Below the pieces are notes generated by a model, which worked only from the letters and a program-made list of their open reading frames with translations, ran no database searches and was not told the origin of the DNA. Both the position numbers and the translations under genes were made by a program. From a phage, in sequence record NC_105507.1: a DNA stretch of 49,995 bases. The stretch is one strand, 5' to 3'. Shown here piece after piece: positions 987 to 49,995 of this stretch. Position 1 is the first letter of the stretch. Each line of letters begins with the position of its first letter.

Positions 987-1463
987 TTAGCTATTCGTGC
1001 TGTTATCACCTTTGTAGAATCGTCCGCCTGGTTCGTAGTCTGAATTTTTGACTACGCGCAACATATCGTATTTGTCGCAACGGGTAGTAAGAGGCTTACC
1101 GTTAGAATCAAACCGCAGATCTGGACGACAAAATGATGCGCGGTATCCTTTGCATCCATTATATTTGTAGTCGTTATGCACCTTTTGTGCTCCAGCGGCT
1201 GAAATCATACCACGCTTTCGCCACTGGTTAACGACTTGCTGAGATACGCGCAGACGTCGAGCCATAGCAGGAACGCCGCCGTAATACTCGATCAGAATGT
1301 CAAGGCGAGATTTCAGGCTTGCTTTTACCTCATCTCGCAGGATAAGAAATCCGGTTCGGTGTTTTCGTGGTTTTTTGTCTTTACCTCGTCGCGTTCCGTT
1401 GTTACCGTTAATAGTGCGCTTGTCGATCTCACCCGTAGATACTGCAATTCGTGCATCTTTCAT
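987..1463 (-). CDS. HTH DNA-binding protein (Cro/YdaS-like)
   Basis: helix-turn-helix-like segment GVPAMARRLRVSQQVVNQWRKRG; GAGGTG RBS 5 nt upstream of ATG 1463. Confidence 0.55.
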   Translation of the reverse strand: MKDARIAVSTGEIDKRTINGNNGTRRGKDKKPRKHRTGFLILRDEVKASLKSRLDILIEYYGGVPAMARRLRVSQQVVNQWRKRGMISAAGAQKVHNDYKYNGCKGYRASFCRPDLRFDSNGKPLTTRCDKYDMLRVVKNSDYEPGGRFYKGDNSTNS

Positions 1464-1475
1464 CTAGTCACCTCA

Positions 1476-1518
1476 TAGCATTTTTTGTTAAAACAGTTTA
1501 TTGTAATGAGTCTATTAT
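1476..1518 (+). promoter_or_regulatory. TAGCAC-box promoter-like cassette
   Basis: TAGCATTTTTTGTTAAAAC box then TATTAT 22 bp after TTGTTA; upstream of helicase gene. Confidence 0.5.
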
Positions 1519-1550
1519 ATACTCCAAATGGCATTTTTTAAAGGTTTAAG

Positions 1551-3548
1551 ATGATTCCAAATATCGAAAAACAAATATCAGCATTAGGCGAGGCAGTAAT
1601 AAAAAGCATCCAAGAGCGATTCACGGTTGGCAATATAGTGCCTTATCCTTATCAGTGCGTTGCGTATGCAGAGATCGCAAAGCGCATGAAAAACTATGAG
1701 CATCCTTTCTTTGTTAAGGCTTCTGTATCGGCTGGCAAAACATTGATGTTTGCGATGGTTGCGGCGCAATGCCGCAAAATGGGATTGAAAATGATGGTCC
1801 TTGCTCGCCAGGCTGAAATTGTTGATCAGGATTCGGAAGAGATCAGCAATCTTGGCGTGCCAAACTCAATCTATTGCGCCGGACTGAAAACAAAAAGCGC
1901 ATACTTTCCGATCGTAGTCGGTTCTGAGGGCACTGTAGTAAACGGATTGTTTAAGTCGTTAGGTGATTATGTTCCGCACGTTATCGGTATTGATGAATGT
2001 CACCAGGTGGATTGGGAGGATCTCGCGGACGCGATAGAAAATAATGAATCTTACCAGCAGATGACCACTAAGAAGGATTTGCCAGTACTGATTGGAGAAG
2101 AACAGCAATTTGATTCCAATGGCGATCCAATGTTCGGAACAGGGCGCACACAGTACACCGTAATAATCATGGAAATGATGCGCAGGTGTCGCGAGGCATA
2201 CGGGCACGAATTGCGAATATTCGGCATGACTGGATCTGAGTTTCGCGGCGTGGTTCCAATACTGGTTGAAGATAAGAACAAAAAGGGATTCTGGCGTGAG
2301 CAAGTAACTAACATAGACACAAACTACTTAATCAAATTCGGTTCGGTAGTGCCAACAAATTTCGGCGACGTCGGCGACCTGGGGTATGACCTTTCAGAGT
2401 TCGAGGCCAGTAGCGAGGACGGCGTTTCAGACTTTGACGCTAAAACATTGCGCAAGATGGAAGAAAAGATCCATCAAGACGCAACAATGACACAGAAAAT
2501 CATGGCTAAAGTCCATGAGATATGCAAAGACAGGAACGGAGTTTTAGTTACATGCGCAGGGGAAAGGCACTGCAAGGAGGCCGCCGCCGCACTGCCGCCA
2601 GGCGTTGAATACAGGATCATAACTGGCAAGACTGGAGATAATCAGCGTAAAGAGTGGCTGAGGGAGGCATACGAGGGAAAAGTAAAATACATCTTCCAGG
2701 TACAGGCGCTTACCACTGGCGTTAACGTTCCGTTTTGGGATACTTCGGTAATGCTGAGAAAGATAGGATCTCTAACATTGCTTATCCAGCTTTTGGGGCG
2801 CGGCATGCGACTGCTTAAGCAATGGCACATTGAACAGGGATTCAAGAAAAAAGATCATCTTGTATTGGATTTTGCAGGTACTATGGATGAGTTAGGTGAT
2901 TTGTATTTCGATCCAATCCTTGAGCAAGCGCAATTCCAAAAGAGATTTACAAACGGGAAAGAGCCTAAGACTTGTCCGATATGTGGAACGCTAAACAGCT
3001 TTTACGCTCGCCGATGTATGCACGTAGACGATAACGGGAAGCGATGTGAGCATTTTTGGACTTACAGAATTTGCGAGGACCAGGTAGATCCGAGAACGAA
3101 AAAGATAATCAAGCGCGGTTGTGGAACAAAAAACGACGTAGTGGCGAGAGTATGCCGTTGTTGCGATATTTCTCTTGTCGATCCTAACGAGAAGTTAAGC
3201 GGTAAGCACTACACCAAAAACGATTGGTGCAACGTTAAATCTTTCCGCGTTGATATGACGAAAAACCAGAAAGGAATTATTTTTTGCTATGAGCTTGAGG
3301 CCAACGGCGATACGTTCAAGGCATACGAAAGATTTTTCCCTGAGTCAGAAAGCAACATTTGCCGGACGATATGGAGAAAAATAGCATTGCAGCACATACC
3401 GGATCGCAAGATTGCTGGTATGGTGGCGAGCTATAGAAATGCTCGTAAAATAATGTCATACGCTCATCACATCATGCCGCCTGTACGCGTAACGCATCGC
3501 AAAAACGGCAAAGGTGAGGATAACATTGCAAAACGGGAGTTTGTTTAA
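1551..3548 (+). CDS. SF2 DNA helicase with C-terminal Zn-ribbons
   Basis: Walker A SAGKT, DECH box, LLGRGMRL motif VI-like; C-terminal CxxC clusters. Confidence 0.85.
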   Translation: MIPNIEKQISALGEAVIKSIQERFTVGNIVPYPYQCVAYAEIAKRMKNYEHPFFVKASVSAGKTLMFAMVAAQCRKMGLKMMVLARQAEIVDQDSEEISNLGVPNSIYCAGLKTKSAYFPIVVGSEGTVVNGLFKSLGDYVPHVIGIDECHQVDWEDLADAIENNESYQQMTTKKDLPVLIGEEQQFDSNGDPMFGTGRTQYTVIIMEMMRRCREAYGHELRIFGMTGSEFRGVVPILVEDKNKKGFWREQVTNIDTNYLIKFGSVVPTNFGDVGDLGYDLSEFEASSEDGVSDFDAKTLRKMEEKIHQDATMTQKIMAKVHEICKDRNGVLVTCAGERHCKEAAAALPPGVEYRIITGKTGDNQRKEWLREAYEGKVKYIFQVQALTTGVNVPFWDTSVMLRKIGSLTLLIQLLGRGMRLLKQWHIEQGFKKKDHLVLDFAGTMDELGDLYFDPILEQAQFQKRFTNGKEPKTCPICGTLNSFYARRCMHVDDNGKRCEHFWTYRICEDQVDPRTKKIIKRGCGTKNDVVARVCRCCDISLVDPNEKLSGKHYTKNDWCNVKSFRVDMTKNQKGIIFCYELEANGDTFKAYERFFPESESNICRTIWRKIALQHIPDRKIAGMVASYRNARKIMSYAHHIMPPVRVTHRKNGKGEDNIAKREFV

Positions 3549-8487: not shown

Positions 8488-8809
8488 CGCCCATCTCCCC
8501 TATTCTAGCAATATCCCTGATCCAGTCGTTGCGCATACCATCCAGGCTATACAATTCGAATCCGAAAGGCCGCTTTGACGATCCTTTGGACCAGTATTTA
8601 CCGCAGACCCCATCTATATAGCCAGCCGTCATCATTCTTGCGCAAAATTCCTTAGATGCAAGGCTGGCGAACATTCGCGGCGTAAGTCCGGCGGCCCGTG
8701 CGAGCCGCTCACATTCTCTATGCTGATAGATAAATTTGGCTATGTGCTGCCTGTTAAACCAGTCGTATGACTCACACCATTTATACAGATCAAGCAAAAA
8801 CATAATCAT
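8414..8809 (-). CDS. hypothetical protein
   Basis: ORF tightly coupled to upstream 526-aa gene. Confidence 0.55.
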   Translation of the reverse strand: MIMFLLDLYKWCESYDWFNRQHIAKFIYQHRECERLARAAGLTPRMFASLASKEFCARMMTAGYIDGVCGKYWSKGSSKRPFGFELYSLDGMRNDWIRDIARIGEMGDDELFQAKANRQDLEALRRKFNIT

Positions 8810-10386
8810 CCCAGCAGTATTGGATTGACAAAAATAACACCATTAATCACACAAACATAATTTCTTTCTTCCAGCATTGGCAGCAAGTGCCCTTCTATCC
8901 TCTTCATTACGCCAGCCTGACCAACGAAAGGTTTTACCTTTCTCGCTGATTCGTACAGGGCGCGAATATTCAGAATCCCTTTATTAGCCTTGCCGTGTCT
9001 AGTGATCAATTCAATCAATTTGCCCATTTCAGCATCATCACCAGCATAACCAGAAGCATTGGCGGCGCTAATGTATGTTTTGCTCAATTCCTGAAACATG
9101 ATCAACGCCTCTTGCATTGTTTCCACGTCGATCTCTTTCGACTTCTGCGGGTATCCAGCAGGATTAAACCAGTTGCGGATAACATGCAGGACGGAAGCAA
9201 GCCTGATCACCTGTTTATCCATTTTACCCAGCGCACCGCGTAACATTGTATGAGAATACTTTCCGCCGTCTGCAAGATGCGGTTCCATATCCTGGCGAGC
9301 AATGTTGAGCACTCGCATAGCTGAGCGGCTTATTTTCAGCGATATATTTGATTCGCTCATGATGTTATGCACCAATTGATAATATTGGGCCTTCAATTCA
9401 GGATCCACCGCCTCATAGGTAGAATCACCATTTTCATCAATGAATGAGCGACGGCCTAAGAATGATTCCTCACGGACCAACAAAAAGCGCTCACTCACAC
9501 CGATACCGCGCGATCCAGCGTCCATGATTCCGCTTATCGTTTCATCCTGGGCTATAACGCTCATACATCCAAGCGCGCGAAAACTCATGTTATTGTCAGC
9601 ATTAGCACGGGCAATTGATACGTGACCATTATCCCACGCCTTAAGCACTAGCTCGCTGTTAGTCTTCCTTTCGCTATTGGCATAGGTCAAGCCTAACAGG
9701 CTGTTAATACTTGTTGCTTCGTCAGATATTACGGCAAAGTTACCTTGCTTGTTGTTGATTTTCGCCAAGCCTTCTGGAGTTGTATCTGAAACAGGAAAAG
9801 TTATATCACACATTTTTTCCAGCTTTTCCTCCAGATCCTCTTTTTCCTGGTATAGAGATTCCATATCAGCGCCGGATCTTTCGCTTTTCATCTCCTTTGC
9901 AAGACCTGCCAGCTTTGCCTGTATTTTCTTTCTTTCCTTGCGGCGTTGCTCGTTGATCTTCTCAACTTCCGCAATCATCGGAGCAATAGCCATGCTGTTG
10001 ATCGCAGATTTACCAGTTGACGGCGGCTGGCTTGTAACGACGTAAAGCGCAGTCGGCTGATCGGTTCCGTGATAGTCAACCGTAAAGCGTCCAAGCATAG
10101 CGGCAGAAATGCAGCCGATAAAGTGCATGTAAGCCGATGATTCAGGGAATTGAACGGATCGCGCAATGCTGCGTGATAACTTGCCGACAACATCAATATC
10201 ATTACCAAGAGAAATAACGGGGTAGCGATCGTGACCGCTATTCACATCCTTTACGTCGCCCCAAAAGCTGGACGACTGGCGATAGCCGTTAGCCTGAATT
10301 GATACGCGAACTGGCGAAAGGTTCTGGCTTTCAGCCATAGCGATTATTTGTTGTGGAGTTAATTTGTTCGTTTCTAATGAAAACAT
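8806..10386 (-). CDS. P-loop NTPase-like protein (SF3-helicase-like Walker A/B), function unknown
   Basis: PPSTGKS Walker A-like and FAVISDEA Walker B-like segments, coiled-coil insert; AAGGAG RBS. Confidence 0.6.
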   Translation of the reverse strand: MFSLETNKLTPQQIIAMAESQNLSPVRVSIQANGYRQSSSFWGDVKDVNSGHDRYPVISLGNDIDVVGKLSRSIARSVQFPESSAYMHFIGCISAAMLGRFTVDYHGTDQPTALYVVTSQPPSTGKSAINSMAIAPMIAEVEKINEQRRKERKKIQAKLAGLAKEMKSERSGADMESLYQEKEDLEEKLEKMCDITFPVSDTTPEGLAKINNKQGNFAVISDEATSINSLLGLTYANSERKTNSELVLKAWDNGHVSIARANADNNMSFRALGCMSVIAQDETISGIMDAGSRGIGVSERFLLVREESFLGRRSFIDENGDSTYEAVDPELKAQYYQLVHNIMSESNISLKISRSAMRVLNIARQDMEPHLADGGKYSHTMLRGALGKMDKQVIRLASVLHVIRNWFNPAGYPQKSKEIDVETMQEALIMFQELSKTYISAANASGYAGDDAEMGKLIELITRHGKANKGILNIRALYESARKVKPFVGQAGVMKRIEGHLLPMLEERNYVCVINGVIFVNPILLG

Positions 10387-10414
10387 TCGTTAGCTTCTCC
10401 TTTGTGGGCCGTAA

Positions 10415-10457
10415 ATTTTAACGGCCCAATACTACCCCGTTTTGTCAAAAAGTGCTA
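10415..10457 (-). promoter_or_regulatory. TAGCAC-box promoter-like cassette
   Basis: box variant containing TTGACA; TAAAAT in loop of GGGCCGT/ACGGCCC hairpin at 22-bp spacing. Confidence 0.55.
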
Positions 10458-10676
10458 TTTGATCCGCTCTATTGCAACCAGAAGTCGATCAGGCTGGCGG
10501 TCGCTGTAGCATTCTCCTGTAATCCCATCCTTAAACGTAAAGTAAAGCGCCTTATGATATGAAAAACCAATCAGCCAACCTACCGCCGTTTTTTTGATGG
10601 GCCTGACTATATCGCCAGGATTGAAAGTCTTTGTGGTAGAATGCGTTACTTTGTAACGGTTTTCACTGTTTATCAC
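10455..10676 (-). CDS. hypothetical protein
   Basis: ORF in leftward early cluster. Confidence 0.5.
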   Translation of the reverse strand: MINSENRYKVTHSTTKTFNPGDIVRPIKKTAVGWLIGFSYHKALYFTFKDGITGECYSDRQPDRLLVAIERIK

Positions 10677-14383: not shown

Positions 14384-14474
14384 AATAATCAAAAGTAATC
14401 ATTCGTAATCAAATCACGTCAAAATGATGATTGCCTTTGCAAATTTGATGAGAAAAGTAATCACGTTTAATCAT
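14384..14474. repeat. phased iteron-like array (TAATCA x5)
   Basis: TAATC at about 14386, 14396, 14406 (10-bp phasing) and 14458, 14468. Confidence 0.5.
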
Positions 14475-14649
14475 TGGTTGCAGTGGAGATAGTGAAACCT
14501 TCCCCTCTTGCCTCACTTTTCCGCCTGGCTGTCAGTGGTTGTTGTCTTTTGTTCACCCCTGTTACCGATTTCAGGCGGCGTGTTTCCGCGCGGTTTTCCG
14601 GTGTAGCGAAAACGGAAAAAACAAAGAAAATCCTCTATAATACATTGAA

Positions 14650-14810
14650 AATAAAGATTATTTATTTATATATATCTATAATGTTTTCTTTTTGTTCTCA
14701 CTGTTACAGTGCTTTTTGTTGGTTATGGTGTGGTTGTGTGTGGGTATATATGGATAGTTGCGCGCGCGGCGGATTGCATATGTATATATACTTTTTCCGG
14801 CGGATTGCGT
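14650..14810. repeat. AT/GT-rich intergenic element, copy A (homologous to 44060-44205)
   Basis: shared blocks TTTATTTATTTA, T-rich CTTGTT, GT-rich GGTT repeats, CATRTGTATRTATATA..CCGGCG; contains direct repeat CGGCGGATTGC x2. Confidence 0.5.
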
Positions 14811-14909
14811 TAACAGCGTGAACAGAAAAATAACAGCCGCGAAATCAATAACTTGCGCATGATTTTGTAGTTTTTCGATATTGGTAACGTTTTGAATACA
14901 ACAAAAACA

Positions 14910-14937
14910 TTGACACGCACCAAATAGCTTTTATAAT
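14910..14937 (+). promoter_or_regulatory. consensus sigma70-type promoter (rightward early)
   Basis: TTGACA-16 bp-TATAAT, about 30 bp upstream of RBS/ATG 14969. Confidence 0.7.
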
Positions 14938-14968
14938 GCGCCAACAGTCAACAACTGGAGGAAAGGAA

Positions 14969-16715: not shown

Positions 16716-16716
16716 A

Positions 16717-16758
16717 TAGCACTTTTTGTTAAAACTCAAATGTGGGGCCAGGTATAAT
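16717..16758 (+). promoter_or_regulatory. TAGCAC-box promoter-like cassette
   Basis: exact box; TATAAT in loop of GGGCC/GGCCC hairpin (21-bp spacing). Confidence 0.55.
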
Positions 16759-16788
16759 GGCCCTACTTTCAACGAAGGAGATAAAACG

Positions 16789-17238: not shown

Positions 17239-17949
17239 ATGAAAAAATACACTTTCGAACTATGGGGCAAGAAGTACGAATTAATCACCAGCAAGCCGAT
17301 TGTTATCGTTGACCTGGACGGCACACTATCGGACGGATCGCATCGTTTGCATTTGCTGCCAACTGAAAACTTACACCTTACGGAATCGTGGAGCGAATTT
17401 AACAGGGCCGCCGCCGGAGATTCACCGATTAAAAGCACGATCGCGGTTATTAACGGTTTGTGGGTGTCGGGATTTGCCATCGTCATCTTGACCGGACGCA
17501 GCGACGAGGTGCGCTATGAAACCTGCAAATGGTTGAATGAGAGCGGCGTGAAGTTTGACGAAATCATCATGCGCCGCCAGGAGGACAACCGAAAGGATAC
17601 GGTTATTAAAGAAGAAGCCTTGCGCGCTATTGGCCTGGACAACATTGTTTGCGCCTTTGACGATTCGCCGAACGTGGTTAAGCACTTCCGCAGCTTGGGG
17701 ATCACAACCTATCAGGTCACGGAATACGACAAGCCACACGCTCACATACAATCTCACGGCGTGGAATCAATAAAGATCACGAAGCGCGCCCGATTCGTCG
17801 ACAGCAAAGACAGCATGGTTAATGCCAGCTTTATCAAAGGCAAGGTTTATGATGTTCATAGCCATGATAAAAACCGATTCTTTTTGTGGGATGAAAAAGG
17901 TTTTGGCTGGTGCTTTGAACACGACGACGGCGATTTTGTTAATGCGTAA
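17239..17949 (+). CDS. HAD-superfamily phosphatase (nucleotidase / polynucleotide 3'-phosphatase-like)
   Basis: DLDGT motif I, LTGRS motif II, FDDS motif IV. Confidence 0.75.
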   Translation: MKKYTFELWGKKYELITSKPIVIVDLDGTLSDGSHRLHLLPTENLHLTESWSEFNRAAAGDSPIKSTIAVINGLWVSGFAIVILTGRSDEVRYETCKWLNESGVKFDEIIMRRQEDNRKDTVIKEEALRAIGLDNIVCAFDDSPNVVKHFRSLGITTYQVTEYDKPHAHIQSHGVESIKITKRARFVDSKDSMVNASFIKGKVYDVHSHDKNRFFLWDEKGFGWCFEHDDGDFVNA

Positions 17950-17992
17950 TAGCACTTTTTGTTAAAACATCTTAACGGGCTTGCGGTATAGT
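17950..17992 (+). promoter_or_regulatory. TAGCAC-box promoter-like cassette
   Basis: exact box after TAA stop; TATAGT in loop of GGGCTT/AAGCCC hairpin at 22-bp spacing. Confidence 0.55.
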
Positions 17993-18023
17993 AAGCCCAT
18001 CAACAACAAGCGAGGATTAAATC

Positions 18024-20289: not shown

Positions 20290-20580
20290 ATGGCAAACAA
20301 AACTTACCGCAAACTACTGGTTAACGCTTTTGAAAACATCGCGCAGTGTAACAAGTGGAACGACTCTAAACACTCGCCAGTCACAATGAAGCGCGCTGGA
20401 TTCAAAAATGCTCGTTCATGGGCGAGAGCTTTCGCATCTTGCTATATGCCGGATGGCGGATTAGGGGTGATGAACGATTTTTTGATCAACATGATAGAGC
20501 AAGCGGCGCGAGAGGATCGACCGCTGACACAGCGAGATTTTGACGACTTCGCGCGCGATGAGCTTTACTATCTGAGCTAA
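20290..20580 (+). CDS. hypothetical protein
   Basis: AAGGGG RBS. Confidence 0.5.
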   Translation: MANKTYRKLLVNAFENIAQCNKWNDSKHSPVTMKRAGFKNARSWARAFASCYMPDGGLGVMNDFLINMIEQAAREDRPLTQRDFDDFARDELYYLS

Positions 20581-20623
20581 TAGCACTTTTTGTTAAAACT
20601 TCCGCAAGGGCATTTGGTAAAGT
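20581..20623 (+). promoter_or_regulatory. TAGCAC-box promoter-like cassette
   Basis: exact box right after TAA stop; TAAAGT in loop of AAGGGCA/TGCCCTT hairpin. Confidence 0.5.
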
Positions 20624-20655
20624 GCCCTTATTGAAGCGAAACAGAGGAAAGCGCA

Positions 20656-43325: not shown

Positions 43326-43604
43326 TCACCCCCAAAAAGTATATATATATCTTGAATCAGATCCAGAAAGCCCACTCCATGTAACGGTGTCGCCACTTAC
43401 CCCTAAGTTTGGTGCGCCAGGGTCGCCACCACGCCAGGAATTCATGCCAACATATATTGCTTTCAATGATTTACCTGGCGGCCTGTTTTGGTAAGTCTTG
43501 CTACCTGATGGCTGAGTGAATTTATCAAGGAAGAAAACAGGCGTTAAAAGCCCTGTAACTTCCCTTCCTCGATCGTCATATATTGCATAACCATATTGCG
43601 CCAT
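43326..43604 (-). CDS. hypothetical protein with YDxxGR-like segment (reverse cassette gene 2)
   Basis: ORF; TAATG overlap with lipoprotein gene. Confidence 0.5.
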   Translation of the reverse strand: MAQYGYAIYDDRGREVTGLLTPVFFLDKFTQPSGSKTYQNRPPGKSLKAIYVGMNSWRGGDPGAPNLGVSGDTVTWSGLSGSDSRYIYTFWG

Positions 43605-43879
43605 TAATTACACCTCAAATCAATAAATTTACTTTCATTTTGCCAACGGTTGATAAATTTAACTTCTTTATTGTCAACGCTCAACCTGTATTGCTTTTGG
43701 CTGAATCTGTTTTCTCGGACTGCATTAATTTTGACTTCATGTAATCCGTTAACAGGGAATGTTTTAACGTTAAATTTTGCCGTGCAATCGATCTCCTTGA
43801 AGTTGCCAGTAGGCGACGCTGCGCATCCTGTCAGAGCGGCTACAGTGGCGATAACTGCGATTAACTTTTTCATCTTCAA
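43604..43879 (-). CDS. outer-membrane lipoprotein, Cor-like superinfection-exclusion candidate
   Basis: signal peptide with lipobox LTGC; AAGGAG RBS; placement next to tail genes as for cor. Confidence 0.65.
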   Translation of the reverse strand: MKMKKLIAVIATVAALTGCAASPTGNFKEIDCTAKFNVKTFPVNGLHEVKINAVRENRFSQKQYRLSVDNKEVKFINRWQNESKFIDLRCN

Positions 43880-43904
43880 TACTCCTTAGTTGTTGTTGGA
43901 TGCA

Positions 43905-43946
43905 ACTATACACGATCTTGGGCATCGCGTTTAGCAAAAAGTGCTA
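43905..43946 (-). promoter_or_regulatory. TAGCAC-box promoter-like cassette (variant) for reverse cassette
   Basis: revcomp TAGCACTTTTTGCTAAAC, TATAGT at 21-bp spacing, then AAGGAG RBS. Confidence 0.5.
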
Positions 43947-44059
43947 TTTGTTATTTTTTGTTTTCCGGTGTTATCGAATTTAAGACGGCGTAAATTTAGC
44001 GCAAAATTTAGACAACATAAGATCAATAAACAATCAACAAAATAGATATATACATATAA

Positions 44060-44205
44060 AATCAATAGTTTATTTATTTATGTATGTATATTTGTTTTTT
44101 CTTGTTATCTGCGTTTCTTGTGGTTTTGGTTGTTTGTGGTGATTTTTCTTTCTGAGTATCTGTATGTGCCATCATTCATGTGTATGTATATAATCCGGCG
44201 TATCT
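44060..44205. repeat. AT/GT-rich intergenic element, copy B (homologous to 14650-14810)
   Basis: same block order as copy A. Confidence 0.5.
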
Positions 44206-44316
44206 GAGAGAACATGGGAACAAGAAAAATAACACAAATTAATCATTAACTTATGAGTCAAATCTGTTTTCTTGCCATCTGAGAACGTTTAGAAAACAGA
44301 AAAAACAAAACAGCTA

Positions 44317-44344
44317 TTGACTAAATCAACCAAATGGCTACAAT
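44317..44344 (+). promoter_or_regulatory. sigma70-type promoter for recombination module
   Basis: TTGACT-16 bp-TACAAT about 30 bp upstream of AAGGAG RBS/ATG 44375. Confidence 0.6.
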
Positions 44345-44374
44345 GCACACATAAAGCAACAAGGAGCATTAAAG

Positions 44375-45430
44375 ATGAGTGATTTTAACGCCTACACTAG
44401 CGAAGAAATGAGCAACGAGCTTTATCATGATCCTAACGCGTGGACGGCTGAATATGTCAGCGGTTCCAGCCTGGCGGAGATTTACAGCACTTGCCCGGCG
44501 TACTGGAAGTACAAGCCGCGCCAGGAAACTAAAGCACTTGTTTTCGGTACGCAGTCGCATACCAACTTTGAAAGCAAGGAGCTATTCGAAAAAACATATC
44601 GCCGCGCACCGTCGCAGGATGATTTTAAAGACCTGATCACTAGTCAAACGGCGTTAGCATCAAAGCTGAAATCTTTTGGCCTGAAAGGTACGACGGGTAA
44701 ACAATACCCTGAATTACTGGAAATGCTGTACAAGTGCGGCGAGGATCTCAATGTGTGGTGGCTTATCGAAATGATGGCAGAATGCCAGGCCGCAGCGGAC
44801 GGAGTGCAGTTAATAGACGCTAAAGATTATGATGCCTGTGTAGCGATGCGGCGCGTACTTGAGGCCATACCGGAGCATAACGCTTGCATGAACAGCCCAA
44901 CCGCGCAGCGTGAAATGTCAATATTTGGGATCATCAACGGCGTAAAAGTAAAAGTGCGTCTTGATCACGTTGACGTAAACAAGGATGTAAAGGCAACAAT
45001 CATTAACGGTTACGACGAAAAAGGCAGGCCGATTTATGAAGAAGTCACCTATCCAGAAGCGGTGATTATCACTGACTACAAAACAACGGTTAGCGCAAAT
45101 CCGGTTGACTTCCAGCGCCTGGCTTACAATCACGGCTATTATCTTAAAATGGCTTTGCAACATGACTTATTCAAAAAGGCTTATCCAGACGAGGAAAGGC
45201 CAGTAATTGTAAGATTGCTTGCGCAGGAGAAGAAAGAGCCTTACTTGCCGCTTGCTTTCCGTATGAATATTGAGCAATTGAAGATCGGGCGCATCCAGTA
45301 CATGAGCGTGATCAACAAGTTCAACGTTTGCCAGCAGTTAGACGAATGGCCTTCGTATGCAAACGGGCAACCGGAAATTGATCTTGATACTCCTGATTGG
45401 GTTCGTGCTCAATTCAGGCATTATCTTTGA
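44375..45430 (+). CDS. recombination exonuclease (PD-(D/E)XK, RecB-like nuclease domain)
   Basis: LDHVD ... ITDYKTT ... Q..Y motifs; adjacent to Erf and SSB. Confidence 0.6.
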   Translation: MSDFNAYTSEEMSNELYHDPNAWTAEYVSGSSLAEIYSTCPAYWKYKPRQETKALVFGTQSHTNFESKELFEKTYRRAPSQDDFKDLITSQTALASKLKSFGLKGTTGKQYPELLEMLYKCGEDLNVWWLIEMMAECQAAADGVQLIDAKDYDACVAMRRVLEAIPEHNACMNSPTAQREMSIFGIINGVKVKVRLDHVDVNKDVKATIINGYDEKGRPIYEEVTYPEAVIITDYKTTVSANPVDFQRLAYNHGYYLKMALQHDLFKKAYPDEERPVIVRLLAQEKKEPYLPLAFRMNIEQLKIGRIQYMSVINKFNVCQQLDEWPSYANGQPEIDLDTPDWVRAQFRHYL

Positions 45431-45505: not shown

Positions 45506-45763
45506 ATGACAGACAAAGACAATGCCACATTATTGCATTTAGAACGATTCATTGATCGAGTAACCATTGCAATGAAAGAATTTATTAAGCCGATGAACAT
45601 TAAAGAGTCGGAAGAAATGAAGACTTACATCAAGGACGTGGTTGCATCCATTGACAACGTTATCCTTGTTGCAACGATGAGCAAGGGAAACAAAGAGCGC
45701 GAGAGGTTGGTTGCTGAATCAACAGAAGAATTTATTAAAATGCTTGAAAGCGAGAAGGAATAA
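45506..45763 (+). CDS. hypothetical protein
   Basis: GGAG RBS; preceded by hairpin with TATAAT-like loop. Confidence 0.5.
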   Translation: MTDKDNATLLHLERFIDRVTIAMKEFIKPMNIKESEEMKTYIKDVVASIDNVILVATMSKGNKERERLVAESTEEFIKMLESEKE

Positions 45764-47935: not shown

Positions 47936-49890
47936 TAAACAATTTCCCCCAATTGATGATCTGTTAGTGCCTTGTGCCATATACGGAAGTTTCTAACGTG
48001 CCCGAAAAGATGGCGTTCGCCTGTACTTGTTTGTCCGCCAATCCTTATAGTAGCCGTTGATACTATATATCTCCATTCCGTTTTTGTTTCGCTTGATATT
48101 CTGGCATTACTTACACAACAAGTATTGTAATCACTCTTTACTCTCATTCCTATGATCATCTTTTTTAGTTTCGCATTCTCGTTAACCCTTCTGTTTGATT
48201 TACCTATATCGCAATAAGGGAATCCATCATTATCGCCCTCGGCAGATCCGAAAGCAAGAATAATTGCCGCACCAGATTGATGACCTCCAGTATCAAAAAC
48301 ACGAGGCGCAGCATTTGGCGTCATACTCCAGTTTTTATTAGCCTCCACAAGAACTGTAAACGGCAAATTGTAAAGGTTGTTTTTTATTGGCACTGTAACC
48401 ATATCGCTTGCCCTTGTTGTCGGACTTTCATTAGTTACAATGAATGATGAAGCGCAAGATCCAACCTCTACTTGAGGAGTTGTTAAATCCATAAAGCTAT
48501 TTTCATCAAAAACTTCTCCTTGTTTATTAACGACCTGTATTACCCCCCTAATGGAAGTTGATTCATCAGTAACTTTGTAAACTATTTCTGCAAAAATCCA
48601 TTCCCCGTCTATGGTAGCGTTCTTTAGCACTATGTTTTTTGCGTCAACTCCAGAAGTTGCCACCCCTAAGTTATCGCAATCAATAATAGCAGAAGCAACA
48701 GAAGATAAAGGATCTCCCTTGTCAAATCTTGCTGCAAATCTTACATTTTTCCCCTTAGCCCTAAAAGATATTGTAACTCCATCACCCTTTACAACTGCAA
48801 TCTTATTTGTAGTAAGTCCAGCTATAATAGTGTAAGAGCCTACGCCACCTAAATATTCCCCTGGTTTAAATGTTGCATACTTAAACCCCCTTTCATCAGT
48901 CTTAGTTTTACCTCTTTCTAATCCTGGATTTGGATTCCATGATTCAGGCTTATTTGAATTTACAAAATAGTTTGTTCTCTGCCCTTCAATCAAAAGACCA
49001 TCCTTTTCAAATCTAGGTTCATCAATAGCAGCATTAGTAAGCACCCCAGACTTATTAATGTAAGTAGCGGTTGATGCGCGTTTAAACTTAACAATCTTGT
49101 CACCTGGCATCGTGATCTCATCGTCACCTATAACAATCTTTTTATATGACGGAGAGAATCCGGTGATCATATCCAGGGAATCATTAAACGGTATCCACAC
49201 GTCCGGCAACGGTTGCAATAAATCTTTGTAAGGTTCTGCGGCCTGCTTTGCGTATTCCTCCGCTTGATCTCGCGCACTTTCAGCTCCTGCCTTTGCAGTG
49301 TTCGCAGCGTCACGCGCGGATTCAGCGCCAGACTTTGCTGCTTCAGCGCCAGTCTTTGCAGTGTTTGCAGCGGCGCGCGCGGATTCAGCGGCAGCCTTTG
49401 CAGTGTCAGCACCTTTCTTGCTATTCTCTGCATTTGTTGCGCTTGTCTTTGCGTTATTCTCGCTAGTTTTAGCTGCCTTCTGGCTTGCTGCGGCTGCGTC
49501 AGCATTTGTCTTTACGTCTTCCTGGATCTTCTGTAGCTTATCCCAATCAAAATCCTTGATGATCTCAATAAATCCAGCAAGCTCCGACTCCTTTCCCTGG
49601 TAATAACGCAACGTTTCCGCTACGTCTTGCGCAAGACCGTCAACCGTTAACGAGTCATGAAGCAAGATCAGGTAATTTGTCTTCTTGACTACCGCGCCGC
49701 CAGTAGTAATTGCGCGAATGCTTGTATCGCTAATCACTTCTGTAATCACAGCAGCTTGCAAAGGTTGAGCAAGAAAGAAAATAGTTGCGCCTGGGCGAAT
49801 CAAGGTTAATTGCTCACGCCATTTTGTACCGTAACCAGTTACATAACCTTGCGCGTCCATAGACGCTTGGCCTTGTCTGTAAATCGCCAT
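47935..49890 (-). CDS. tail fibre protein
   Basis: Ala-rich degenerate repeats (AKTSENNAKTSATNAE...), C-terminal beta-rich domain; AGGAGG RBS before ATG 49890 (track GTG 49914). Confidence 0.8.
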   Translation of the reverse strand: MAIYRQGQASMDAQGYVTGYGTKWREQLTLIRPGATIFFLAQPLQAAVITEVISDTSIRAITTGGAVVKKTNYLILLHDSLTVDGLAQDVAETLRYYQGKESELAGFIEIIKDFDWDKLQKIQEDVKTNADAAAASQKAAKTSENNAKTSATNAENSKKGADTAKAAAESARAAANTAKTGAEAAKSGAESARDAANTAKAGAESARDQAEEYAKQAAEPYKDLLQPLPDVWIPFNDSLDMITGFSPSYKKIVIGDDEITMPGDKIVKFKRASTATYINKSGVLTNAAIDEPRFEKDGLLIEGQRTNYFVNSNKPESWNPNPGLERGKTKTDERGFKYATFKPGEYLGGVGSYTIIAGLTTNKIAVVKGDGVTISFRAKGKNVRFAARFDKGDPLSSVASAIIDCDNLGVATSGVDAKNIVLKNATIDGEWIFAEIVYKVTDESTSIRGVIQVVNKQGEVFDENSFMDLTTPQVEVGSCASSFIVTNESPTTRASDMVTVPIKNNLYNLPFTVLVEANKNWSMTPNAAPRVFDTGGHQSGAAIILAFGSAEGDNDGFPYCDIGKSNRRVNENAKLKKMIIGMRVKSDYNTCCVSNARISSETKTEWRYIVSTATIRIGGQTSTGERHLFGHVRNFRIWHKALTDHQLGEIV

Positions 49891-49908
49891 TTGTAAAATC
49901 CTCCTAAA

Positions 49909-49926
49909 TAGCACTTTTTGCTAATG
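49909..49926 (+). repeat. degenerate TAGCAC box copy
   Basis: TAGCACTTTTTGCTAATG overlapping tail-fibre RBS region, no -10 at canonical spacing. Confidence 0.35.
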
Positions 49927-49955
49927 ACAATGCAGATAATAGCATTTTCAAGTGC

Positions 49956-49981
49956 AAAAAAAAACCCCGCATAAGCGGGGC
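49956..49981 (-). terminator. rho-independent terminator (minus strand)
   Basis: CCCCGC ataa GCGGGG stem followed on minus strand by T9; would terminate the primase transcript if the genome is circularised. Confidence 0.6.
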
Positions 49982-49995
49982 AATACTAGCGGAGT

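What the first reader, a model, noticed from the sequence alone, without database searches (positions are those of the whole stretch)
43880..44374. 495-bp divergent control region between the lipoprotein cassette and the recombination module
This gap holds a leftward box cassette (43905-43946), copy B of the AT/GT-rich element, a TAATCA-like site and the rightward promoter TTGACT-16-TACAAT (44317-44344). It is a second divergent regulatory hub resembling the 14.3-14.97 kb region.
Basis: seen in the sequence. Interest (0 to 1): 0.45.

Follow-up and report, generated by a model that had tools for sequence, protein, structure and literature searches.

The report
T1-like phage divergent promoters, origin-like module
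This gap in a T1-like coliphage holds two outward-facing promoters, and most of its length is a conserved, duplicated non-coding module that looks like a replication origin, a site not reported for this phage family in the papers searched here.

Summary
The window is a T1-like phage (Drexlerviridae, Warwickvirus). The gap is 501 bp from the likely cor ATG at 43873. It lies between the leftward cor lipoprotein operon and the rightward exoVIII-erf-ssb module.

Known parts:
- The "box cassette" is one of 18 copies of the published 21-nt Drexlerviridae direct repeat, here followed by a -10-like hexamer.
- The rightward TTGACT-16-TACAAT promoter is family-conserved and equals TLS "P51".

The single TAATCA is at chance level. 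What is conserved there is an IHF-type consensus.

Promoters account for about 100 bp. The remaining ~360 bp (43948-44307) is truly paralogous to 14539-14909 (z 13-33 against shuffles). Both copies share this layout:
- TGTT sites at exact 10-bp phasing, with inverted AACA groups;
- an AT core that, with its partner, is the least stable duplex in the genome, also in T1 and SRT8;
- clade-specific motifs confined to the two regions.

The phage encodes a P4-alpha-type primase and an MCM-like helicase with a C-terminal winged helix.

Best reading (about 0.45): a paired iteron/unwinding-element origin module between divergent promoters. Main rival: an operator or enhancer array for the early promoters. 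No transcript or replication data were available.

The parts
43607..43873 (-). cor-like lipoprotein gene (flank). It is the first gene of the leftward three-gene operon.
   Evidence: PHROG 1119, Cor superinfection exclusion, E 8.5e-8. Lipobox LTGC in MKKLIAVIATVAALTGC. SD AAGGAG lies at 43887-43882.
43905..43910 (-). -10-like hexamer TATAGT of the leftward repeat-type promoter.
   Evidence: It sits at the fixed distance seen in the logo of 18 repeat copies, where G-n-TATAAT follows 21-22 nt after the dyad. ACTATA is conserved in relatives that have a leftward gene.
43929..43949 (-). 21-nt Drexlerviridae direct repeat (AAATAGCACTTTTTGCTAAAC on the minus strand), with the perfect dyad TAGCA-N5-TGCTA centred at 43939.
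   Evidence: It matches the TLS consensus aaATAGCACnnnTTGnTAAAA and starts 76 nt from the ATG, as reported for TLS (PMC11447400).
43949..43975 (+). Repeat triplet 1: TGTT at 43949, 43959 and 43969, exactly 10 bp apart.
   Evidence: Region A has the same triplet at 14540/14550/14560. It is conserved with the same phasing in PHB17, W011D and TLS.
43986..43995 (+). CGGCGTAAAT motif, first of two copies.
   Evidence: Conserved block. CGGCG occurs twice in the core against 0.02 expected in shuffles.
44014..44039 (+). Inverted-orientation sites (AACA at 44014, 44029, 44036) on the left edge of the AT core.
   Evidence: ACA columns are invariant in the 16-phage alignment.
44029..44106 (.). AT core. 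It is an imperfect palindrome (arms 44029-44061 and 44074-44106), and 44041-44080 is one of the two least stable duplex segments of the window. A strict IHF-type match lies at 44060-44072.
   Evidence: Nearest-neighbour stability -0.935 against a genome mean of -1.366, sd 0.10; it ranks in the top two with the region A core at every window size tested. The same holds in T1 and SRT8. Palindrome I1. IHF pattern.
44093..44110 (+). Repeat group 2: TGTT at 44093 and 44103.
   Evidence: Region A has 14682/14693/14702. TTGTT is invariant across 16 phages.
44111..44200 (+). GT-rich stretch, second TA-rich patch (TGTATGTATAT repeated at 44081 and 44181) and the second CGGCG (44196-44200).
   Evidence: ATCCGGCGTAAAT is conserved.
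44211..44234 (+). Inverted repeat triplet 3: AACA at 44211, 44219 and 44231.
   Evidence: Region A has 14812/14821/14832. The consensus GTGAACAatGGAACAcAAAAACAACA is conserved.
44241..44253 (+). IHF-type consensus AATCATTAACTTA.
   Evidence: It matches the relaxed WATCAWNNNNTTR pattern. Relatives read AATCAATAACTTA or ATCAAGCACTTA at this position, and region A has the strict form at 14843.
44295..44312 (+). Promoter-proximal AACA sites (44295, 44304, 44309).
   Evidence: AAACAnAAAAnAACA is conserved.
44317..44344 (+). Rightward sigma-70 promoter TTGACT-16-TACAAT for exoVIII-erf-ssb.
   Evidence: TTGACTA is invariant, and TTGAC is kept in every phage aligned through this stretch. It equals TLS P51. 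It is paralogous to TTGACA-17-TATAAT at 14909-14937.
44361..44377 (+). SD AAGGAG and the ATG of the exoVIII gene.
14539..14942 (+). Paralogous copy A of the module plus its promoter, at the other large divergent junction.

Best explanation
The gap is a composite of three parts.

(1) Leftward promoter. The cor operon is driven by a repeat-type promoter: a dyad-symmetric 21-nt box centred about 41 bp upstream of the predicted start, plus a -10 hexamer and no usable -35. I infer that it needs a phage-encoded dimeric activator. The Cro/YdaS-like regulator at 990-1463 is the only annotated candidate.

(2) Rightward promoter. A family-conserved near-consensus sigma-70 promoter drives exoVIII-erf-ssb, presumably early and by unmodified host polymerase.

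(3) Central module. The ~360 bp between the promoters is one of two paralogous copies of an origin-type nucleoprotein assembly site. Short 7-8-bp sites (TGTTnnC here, TGTAACA in T1, TGTAATC in SRT8) are arrayed at helical phasing, with groups in opposite orientation bracketing an extremely unstable AT core. IHF-type bends are also present.

Proposed mechanism for the module:
- A phage protein binds the arrays. The best candidate is the MCM-like helicase through its C-terminal winged helix, as in self-loading SaPI Rep-type helicases.
- The flanking outward transcription supplies negative supercoiling.
- The AT core melts and the helicase loads.
- The P4-alpha-type primase primes, and host polymerase III extends.

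Shown here: the anatomy, the paralogy, the conservation, the helix instability and the protein folds. Inferred: binding, melting, timing of transcription and origin function.
For: Identity and context: the window is 99.7% identical to Warwickvirus phages.

Paralogy: A and B align over 381 columns, with z 33 against dinucleotide shuffles and 13.5 against block shuffles. The same pairing is seen in W011D, and a shorter one in T1.

Architecture: the 10-bp phasing is identical in A and B. TGTT plus AACA occur 15 times in the B core against 8.0+-2.1 in shuffles, with 0 of 500 shuffles reaching that count.

Clade-specific motifs confined to A and B:
- T1: TGTAACA, 6 inside and 0 elsewhere in 47.6 kb.
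- SRT8: CTCTATA 5 inside and 0 outside; ATAAGAT 4 inside and 0 outside.
This argues for a phage-encoded binder rather than a host factor.

Helix instability: the AT cores of A and B are the two least stable segments genome-wide in the window, in T1 and in SRT8.

IHF-type sites: two of the six strict matches in the window lie in A and B.

Replication proteins:
- The primase is homologous to the P4 alpha primase domain (tblastn E 2e-14).
- The helicase model has pLDDT 88.7, all top-50 PDB fold hits are MCM subunits, and it ends in a winged helix.

Precedents:
- P4 ori and crr carry the 8-bp TGTTCACC repeat in 10-bp-phased triplets and doublets at two separate cis sites.
- PICI origins have two iteron sets flanking an AT-rich region (PMC6092414).
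- SaPI Rep recognises iterons through its C-terminal domain (PMC7581432).

Promoters.
Against: - There are no experimental data on transcription, protein binding or replication for this or any related phage in the searched literature.
- The repeat is short and T-rich, so in this phage part of the signal could be A/T-tract curvature.
- The module always travels with a strong promoter in one orientation. A purely transcriptional role would explain that equally well.
- Unlike PICI/SaPI origins, neither copy adjoins the helicase gene. B is about 34 kb from the helicase gene and about 5.6 kb from the primase gene.
- In T1, region A carries its TGTAACA sites over the promoter, which is operator-like.
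- Hairpin energies of the core are not significant (z -0.2 to -2.2).
- The winged helix being more divergent than the ATPase core is weak evidence.
Confidence: 0.45

Rival explanations
1. The module is purely transcriptional. It would be an array of operator or enhancer sites for a phage regulator that boosts or later shuts off the two strong early sigma-70 promoters. The AT core and phased T-tracts would provide curvature or polymerase wrapping, and IHF would bring upstream DNA to the promoter.
For: - The module and the promoter are duplicated together, in fixed orientation and at fixed distance, including similarity in the promoter spacer.
- AACA sites abut the -35.
- In T1 region A, TGTAACA sites bracket the predicted start site.
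- The phage encodes a Cro-like HTH protein.
- The TLS authors found only three sigma-70 promoters, two of which sit at these modules.
Against: - The AT core lies about 250 bp upstream of the -35, too far for an UP element.
- This reading does not explain why the two cores are the genome-wide stability minima in three diverged genomes.
- The third early promoter has no such module.
- The repeat layout, with inverted sets bracketing an AT core, matches that of known iteron origins.
Confidence: 0.3
2. The gap encodes small proteins, the 44-, 32- and 29-codon minus-strand ORFs that some GenBank records annotate.
For: ExeQuayColi, KMB46 and other records annotate three hypothetical proteins here.
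Against: The ORFs are intact only within the genus. Hanrivervirus, the TLS group and other relatives have stops and frameshifts although the DNA is conserved. No SD was noted upstream of these ORFs. The composition is simple and AT- or GT-rich.
Confidence: 0.03
3. The module specifies a structured non-coding RNA.
For: The plus-strand RNA fold has z -2.55.
Against: There is no Rfam match even at E<=1. The minus strand gives z -1.39. The fold signal comes from the TGTT/AACA inverted sites. No conserved internal promoter or terminator was seen. The sequence changes motif between clades rather than keeping base pairs.
Confidence: 0.05
4. The module is a packaging (pac-type) or terminase recognition element, because region A lies where T1-like genomes are opened.
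For: T1 map position 1 and the start of the XY3 record fall inside region A.
Against: Those ends fall in the part of A that is not shared with B (window ~14492, left of 14539). B lacks region A's phased TAATCA cluster. T1-like phages show a single pac fragment (TLS paper).
Confidence: 0.04

Closest known systems
Satellite phage P4 ori and crr (alpha-protein iterons)
   Same: - Short 8-bp repeats (TGTTCACC) occur in 10-bp-phased triplets and doublets, in both orientations.
- They sit next to AT-rich DNA, at two separate cis regions of one genome.
- The Tempevirinae site TGTTCAC shares 7 of 8 bases with the P4 repeat.
- The phage primase is homologous to the alpha primase domain.
   Different: - No homologue of the alpha helicase or origin-binding domain was detected by sequence.
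- The helicase here is a separate MCM-like protein.
- The repeat differs between clades.
- The two copies here are full paralogues, each with its own promoter, and lie 20-29 kb apart.
- No function has been tested.
PICI/SaPI replication origins with self-loading Rep helicases
   Same: Two sets of iterons flank an AT-rich presumed melting site. The initiator is a helicase that reads the iterons with a C-terminal domain (PMC6092414, PMC7581432). The phage helicase here is AAA+ MCM-like with a C-terminal winged helix.
   Different: PICI origins lie immediately downstream of rep; here neither copy adjoins the helicase gene. There are two copies per genome. Each is flanked by divergent promoters.
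TLS promoter P51 and the 21-nt direct repeats of T1-like phages (PMC11447400)
   Same: The rightward promoter and the leftward box are the same elements as those listed for TLS. The consensus, the orientation and the 76-nt distance to the start codon all match.
   Different: TLS has no leftward gene or box at this gap. That paper reports finding no such repeats (iterons) anywhere in the genome and treats the function of the repeat as an open question. The paired module is not described there.
Class II activator-dependent promoters / T4 MotA-type middle promoters
   Same: These promoters have a good -10, no usable -35, and a conserved upstream box replacing it. Here a dyad is centred near -41/-42.
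   Different: The activator is unidentified, no AsiA-like factor is known, and the geometry is inferred from predicted start sites, not mapped ones.
Bacillus phage SPP1 oriL/oriR (recalled from memory, not checked here)
   Same: A virulent siphovirus with two related origin elements, each with repeated boxes next to AT-rich DNA, bound by one phage initiator.
   Different: The protein family and repeats are unrelated, and one SPP1 origin lies inside the initiator gene.

Membership tests
Drexlerviridae 21-nt intergenic direct repeat (TLS DR family) | Match to the consensus aaATAGCACnnnTTGnTAAAA. | tested here: met
   The minus strand of 43949-43929 reads AAATAGCACTTTTTGCTAAAC; only the last base differs.
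Drexlerviridae 21-nt intergenic direct repeat (TLS DR family) | Intergenic, oriented with transcription, about 76 nt upstream of the start codon, with many copies per genome. | tested here: met
   The repeat start 43949 is 76 nt from ATG 43873. There are 18 copies in the window, nearly all pointing at the next gene.
Sigma-70 promoter | -35 and -10 hexamers with a 16-18 nt spacer. | tested here: met
   TTGACT-16-TACAAT matches 10 of 12 positions. The match alone is not above chance in this AT-rich stretch.
Sigma-70 promoter | Conservation of the hexamers and spacing in relatives. | tested here: met
   TTGACTA is invariant in the 10 clade representatives. TTGAC is kept in every phage aligned through this stretch, where two read TTGACAC. 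TAnAAT is kept in nearly all, and there are no gaps in the spacer apart from L032.
Sigma-70 promoter | A transcript 5' end about 7 nt downstream of the -10. | not testable with these tools
   No transcript data were found.
Iteron-type replication origin (P4 ori/crr, PICI/SaPI ori) | Multiple short repeats in phased arrays, in both orientations. | tested here: met
   TGTT lies at 43949/43959/43969 and 44093/44103. AACA lies at 44211/44219/44231 and 44295/44304/44309. The pattern is mirrored in A and is enriched over shuffles.
Iteron-type replication origin (P4 ori/crr, PICI/SaPI ori) | An AT-rich, easily melted segment bracketed by the repeat sets. | tested here: met
   44041-80 and 14635-74 are the two stability minima of the genome. 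The same holds in T1 and SRT8.
Iteron-type replication origin (P4 ori/crr, PICI/SaPI ori) | Repeats co-vary with a cognate element-encoded initiator. | tested here: inconclusive
   The motif changes by clade and is shared by A and B within a genome. The binder is not identified. The winged helix is the most divergent helicase part, but only modestly so.
Iteron-type replication origin (P4 ori/crr, PICI/SaPI ori) | The origin adjoins the initiator gene (PICI/SaPI rule). | tested here: not met
   The helicase gene is at 8809-10386 and the primase gene at 5-1009. B is at 43.9-44.3 kb and A at 14.5-14.9 kb.
Iteron-type replication origin (P4 ori/crr, PICI/SaPI ori) | Supports initiator-dependent replication, and the initiator binds the repeats. 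| not testable with these tools
   This needs plasmid ori assays, marker-frequency analysis, and EMSA or footprinting.
IHF binding site | Match to WATCAANNNNTTR. | tested here: met
   A strict match lies at 44060-44072. A one-mismatch match lies at 44241-44253, which is strict in most relatives and in A (14843). Binding was not tested.
Any Rfam RNA family | Covariance-model match. | tested here: not met
   There were no hits at gathering score for the whole window, and none at E<=1 for 43800-44450.

The most novel reading that the evidence does not exclude
The two paralogous modules (43.95-44.31 kb and 14.54-14.91 kb) are the unidentified replication origins of T1-like phages, or an ori plus a crr-like enhancer. 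The phage's MCM-like helicase would recognise the clade-specific 10-bp-phased repeats through its C-terminal winged helix. Divergent early transcription would activate the origins by melting the AT core.
Probability: 0.4. Interest if true: 0.65.

Novelty: new member of a known kind. Interest (0 to 1): 0.5.

Why it matters
T1 is one of the classic T phages, yet I found no report of where its replication starts. The 2024 TLS re-annotation reports finding no iteron-type repeats anywhere in that genome. It also lists the function of the 21-nt repeats as an open question.

This analysis gives two precise and cheaply testable candidates for the origin. It also suggests a candidate initiator and a mechanism involving divergent transcription.

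It also offers a concrete model for the repeat boxes as activator-dependent promoters. If that holds, the family's regulatory scheme becomes simple: three sigma-70 early promoters, and about 18 activator-dependent promoters.

T1-like phages are common laboratory and fermentation contaminants and are candidates for phage therapy, so knowing their origins and early promoters would help in engineering and in control.

Tried and rejected
- **Rfam.** The whole window at gathering score and the gap at E<=1 gave nothing.
- **Small ORFs.** The ORFs annotated in the gap by some records are not conserved outside the genus.
- **ncRNA or hairpin.** RNA fold z-scores are weak. DNA hairpin or cruciform energies of the AT core are not significant.
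- **Plasmid collection.** A search with the module found no match.
- **TAATCA as a shared box.** It occurs once in B, is at chance level genome-wide, and is not conserved as such.
- **pac function for B.** Rejected because the genome-end-associated part of region A is not shared with B.
- **Host-factor binding of the TGTT sites.** Judged unlikely because the motif changes between clades that share hosts.
- **DnaA boxes.** By eye only 6-of-9 matches were seen; not pursued.
- **Helicase by sequence.** The PDB sequence search and Pfam on the C-terminal 96 residues gave nothing. Only the predicted fold was informative.
- **Region A relatives.** The search for related loci with the gene downstream of A returned only two loci, so region A comparisons rest on the window, W011D, T1 and SRT8.
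- **Literature.** Searches for T1-family transcriptomes or origins returned nothing relevant.
- **GC skew.** Not used, because it is confounded by the switch of gene orientation at both junctions.

Full report
**Identity and context**

The window is a nearly complete T1-like phage genome. The stretch 43400-44900 is 99.7% identical to Escherichia phages JLBYU19, Phunderstruck, tonn and others of Drexlerviridae, Tempevirinae, Warwickvirus.

To the left of the gap lie three leftward genes:
- a Cor-type lipoprotein at 43607-43873 (PHROG 1119; lipobox LTGC);
- an outer-membrane protein;
- a membrane-associated protein.

To the right lie exonuclease VIII, a small ORF, Erf and SSB.

The likely cor start is ATG 43873, because the Shine-Dalgarno sequence AAGGAG sits 8 nt upstream. 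The gap is therefore 501 bp rather than 495 bp. An equivalent gap exists in T1 itself, between cor and exoVIII (527 bp).

**The observation**

- *The box.* It occupies 43929-43949. It is one of 19 matches to AAAAAGYGCTATTT in the window, against 2.2 expected.
- *The rightward promoter.* TTGACT-16-TACAAT lies at 44317-44344. As a bare consensus match it is unremarkable in this AT-rich DNA: 7 sites were found against 6.4 expected.
- *Conservation of that promoter.* TTGACTA is invariant in the ten clade representatives, and TTGAC is kept in every phage aligned through this stretch. TAnAAT is kept in nearly all of them. These phages are otherwise only 42-97% identical to the window in this region.
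- *Copy B.* 43948-44307 aligns with 14539-14909 at 65% identity over 381 columns. The local alignment score is 73. Dinucleotide shuffles give 12.5+-1.8, and shuffles that keep local composition in 40-nt blocks give 23+-3.7.
- *The TAATCA site.* This is the weak item. The hexamer and its complement occur 54 times in the window, and it occurs once in B.

**What is already known**

The 2024 re-annotation of phage TLS (PMC11447400) describes 18 intergenic copies of a 21-nt repeat, aaATAGCACnnnTTGnTAAAA. They lie in the direction of transcription, about 76 nt before start codons. The authors state that the function is unknown. The same paper lists only three sigma-70-type promoters, one of which (P51) lies upstream of the exonuclease gene.

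Here the repeat starts exactly 76 nt from the cor ATG.

TLS and SP-126 have no leftward gene at this gap. They carry a terminator there instead of the box, which fits a promoter role for the box.

**The leftward cassette**

Aligning the 18 window copies shows that the repeat is a dyad, TAGCA-N5-TG(C/T)TA. A conserved G-n-TATAAT follows 21-22 nt later.

The TTGTTA inside the repeat is about 22 nt from the -10, too far to serve as a -35. The dyad centre falls near -41/-42 relative to a start predicted 7 nt after the -10.

That is the geometry of promoters that depend on a dimeric activator overlapping the -35 position. I therefore read the leftward cassette (repeat at 43929-43949; TATAGT at 43910-43905) as an activator-dependent promoter.

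The only annotated regulator is the Cro/YdaS-like HTH protein at 990-1463. In TLS its counterpart is expressed from one of the three sigma-70 promoters. Assigning it as the activator is inference.

**The bulk of the gap**

The two promoters account for about 100 bp. The rest is conserved at about 73% identity across genera. That is more than expected for spacer DNA, and it is not coding: the small ORFs annotated by some records break down outside the genus.

Its anatomy is regular, and it is mirrored in copy A.

| Feature | Copy B | Copy A |
|---|---|---|
| TGTT triplet, 10-bp phased | 43949 / 43959 / 43969 | 14540 / 14550 / 14560 |
| AT core, W=40 stability minimum | 44041-44080 | 14635-14674 |
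| Second TGTT group | 44093 / 44103 | 14682 / 14693 / 14702 |
| Inverted AACA triplet | 44211 / 44219 / 44231 | 14812 / 14821 / 14832 |
| IHF-type consensus | 44241-44253 | from 14843 |
| AACA sites abutting the -35 | 44295 / 44304 / 44309 | 14900 / 14906 |

Further details:
- A CGGCGTAAAT motif follows the first triplet and recurs later in the module.
- Inverted AACA sites sit on the left edge of the B core (44014, 44029, 44036).
- The B core is an imperfect 33-nt palindrome, 44029-44061 against 44074-44106. It carries a strict IHF-type match at 44060-44072.
- A GT-rich stretch and a second TA patch lie between the second TGTT group and the AACA triplet.
- TGTT plus AACA occur 15 times in the B core, against 8.0+-2.1 in dinucleotide shuffles of the same sequence (0 of 500 shuffles reach this).

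**Evidence that this is a protein-binding, helix-opening module**

First, the repeat changes with the phage clade at aligned positions:
- TGTTCAC in TLS and W011D;
- TGTTATC/TGTTTTC in the window;
- TGTAACA in T1;
- TGTAATC in SRT8.

Second, within a genome the clade-private motifs are confined to regions A and B:
- T1: TGTAACA, 6 copies there and none in the other 47.6 kb;
- SRT8: CTCTATA 5 against 0, and ATAAGAT 4 against 0.

These phages share hosts, so a host factor does not explain the change. A phage-encoded binder does.

Third, nearest-neighbour duplex stability was scanned at windows of 40, 60, 100 and 150 bp (40, 60 and 100 bp for SRT8). At every size, the A and B cores are the two least stable segments of the whole genome. 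In the window they lie more than 4 sd from the mean. The same is true in T1 and SRT8, although there the cores can barely be aligned to the window.

Fourth, the A/B pairing is seen in all four genomes examined: the window, W011D, T1 and SRT8.

**Replication proteins**

The phage has no DNA polymerase gene (TLS paper).

- The primase (5-1009) has the primase-helicase zinc ribbon. It aligns with the primase domain of P4 alpha (E 2e-14).
- The DUF3987 protein (8809-10386) was modelled with high confidence (pLDDT 88.7).
- All of its top 50 fold matches in the PDB are MCM subunits (best E 4e-6).
- It ends in a canonical winged helix: helix 450-467, strand, helix 474-481, helix 493-507, beta hairpin 511-520.

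Self-loading initiator helicases of SaPIs recognise iteron origins with a C-terminal domain, and the MCM-like Cch is related to them (PMC7581432).

The annotated P4 record shows the 8-bp TGTTCACC repeat in 10-bp-phased triplets and doublets at two separate cis regions, ori and crr.

The layout found here is of that kind. The Tempevirinae repeat shares seven of eight bases with the P4 repeat. I treat that as a lead, not as evidence of homology.

**Most likely mechanism**

B and A are origin-type assembly sites. The proposed steps are:
1. A phage protein, most plausibly the MCM-like helicase through its winged helix, occupies the phased arrays on both sides of the AT core.
2. IHF bends the DNA.
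3. Outward transcription from the flanking promoters leaves negative supercoils between them and lowers the cost of opening the core.
4. The helicase loads, the primase primes, and host polymerase extends.

Shown: the anatomy, paralogy, conservation, instability and folds. Inferred: every binding and melting step, and the early or delayed timing of the two promoters. I put this at about 0.45.

**Rivals**

*Transcriptional array (about 0.3).* The arrays could be operators or enhancers for the two strong early promoters.
- For: the promoter is part of the duplicated unit, AACA sites abut the -35, and in T1 region A the motif brackets the start site.
- Against: it does not explain the distant, extreme AT core. 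The third early promoter also lacks such a module.
- The two readings are not exclusive.

*Low-probability rivals.* Small proteins, a structured RNA, a pac-type site, and a neutral spacer (considered but not scored separately) are all unlikely.

**Limits**

- No transcript, binding or replication data exist in the searched literature.
- Region A comparisons rest on four genomes.
- The repeat is short and T-rich in this phage.
- The PICI rule that the origin adjoins the initiator gene is not met.
- The winged helix being the most divergent part of the helicase (65% against 88-90% for the core between T1 and SRT8) is only weak support for it as the specificity determinant.

**Verdict**

The box and the rightward promoter are already published for a relative.

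The new content is the paired, structured module, which I did not find described in the papers searched. It gives the T1 family a concrete and testable origin candidate. I rate it a new member of a known kind, with moderate interest.

Noticed in passing
window 14386-14473: Region A, but not B, has five TAATCA boxes at 10-bp phasing (14386/14396/14406 and 14458/14468). They lie just left of where the XY3 record is opened (window 14492). T1 has CGATTA(A/C) repeats in the equivalent place, and its map position 1 falls nearby. They may be a pac or small-terminase site, or operators.
   Followed up: partly
window, 18 sites (e.g. 3964, 5035, 11132, 16716, 17949, 20580, 43947): The 21-nt repeat is a dyad (TAGCA-N5-TGYTA) followed at a fixed 21-22 nt by G-n-TATAAT. 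This puts the dyad near -41/-42, which is the geometry of an activator-dependent promoter. In most copies the repeat overlaps the stop codon of the upstream gene.
   Followed up: partly
window 16716-16770, 17949-18000, 20580-20630, 10400-10458: In several repeat cassettes the -10 hexamer sits in the loop of a GC-rich hairpin. In others the hairpin fills the spacer. The T1 record annotates many of its intergenic hairpins as rho-independent terminators, although those in the window's cassettes mostly lack a clear T-run.
   Followed up: no
window 8809-10386 (-): The DUF3987 'DNA helicase' is predicted with high confidence to be an MCM-like AAA+ protein with a C-terminal winged helix. The C-terminal domain also matches a separate PHROG (7327) of unknown function.
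   Followed up: yes
window 49880-49995: A perfect-dyad repeat (49908-49925) sits directly against the SD and start of the leftward tail-fibre gene. It lies next to a terminator hairpin for the primase operon (CCCCGC-ATAA-GCGGGG). There is no room for a -10 leftward, so this copy may act as an operator or drive an antisense transcript.
   Followed up: no
window 45506-45763 (+): The 85-codon ORF between exoVIII and erf is labelled 'tail length tape measure protein' in RefSeq and PHROGs. That label looks like a propagated misannotation for a gene inside the recombination module.
   Followed up: no
GenBank MG0656xx records: About 18 records named 'Campylobacter phage' with host C. jejuni carry this T1-like region at about 74% identity and have T1-like genome sizes. 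They look like Drexlerviridae coliphage genomes, so the host label is doubtful.
   Followed up: no
window 1463-1551: The third divergent junction (regulator/primase leftward, SF2 helicase rightward) is only 88 bp. It holds a repeat-type promoter for the helicase and a TATAAT leftward (the TLS P57 equivalent), but no iteron/AT module.
   Followed up: partly
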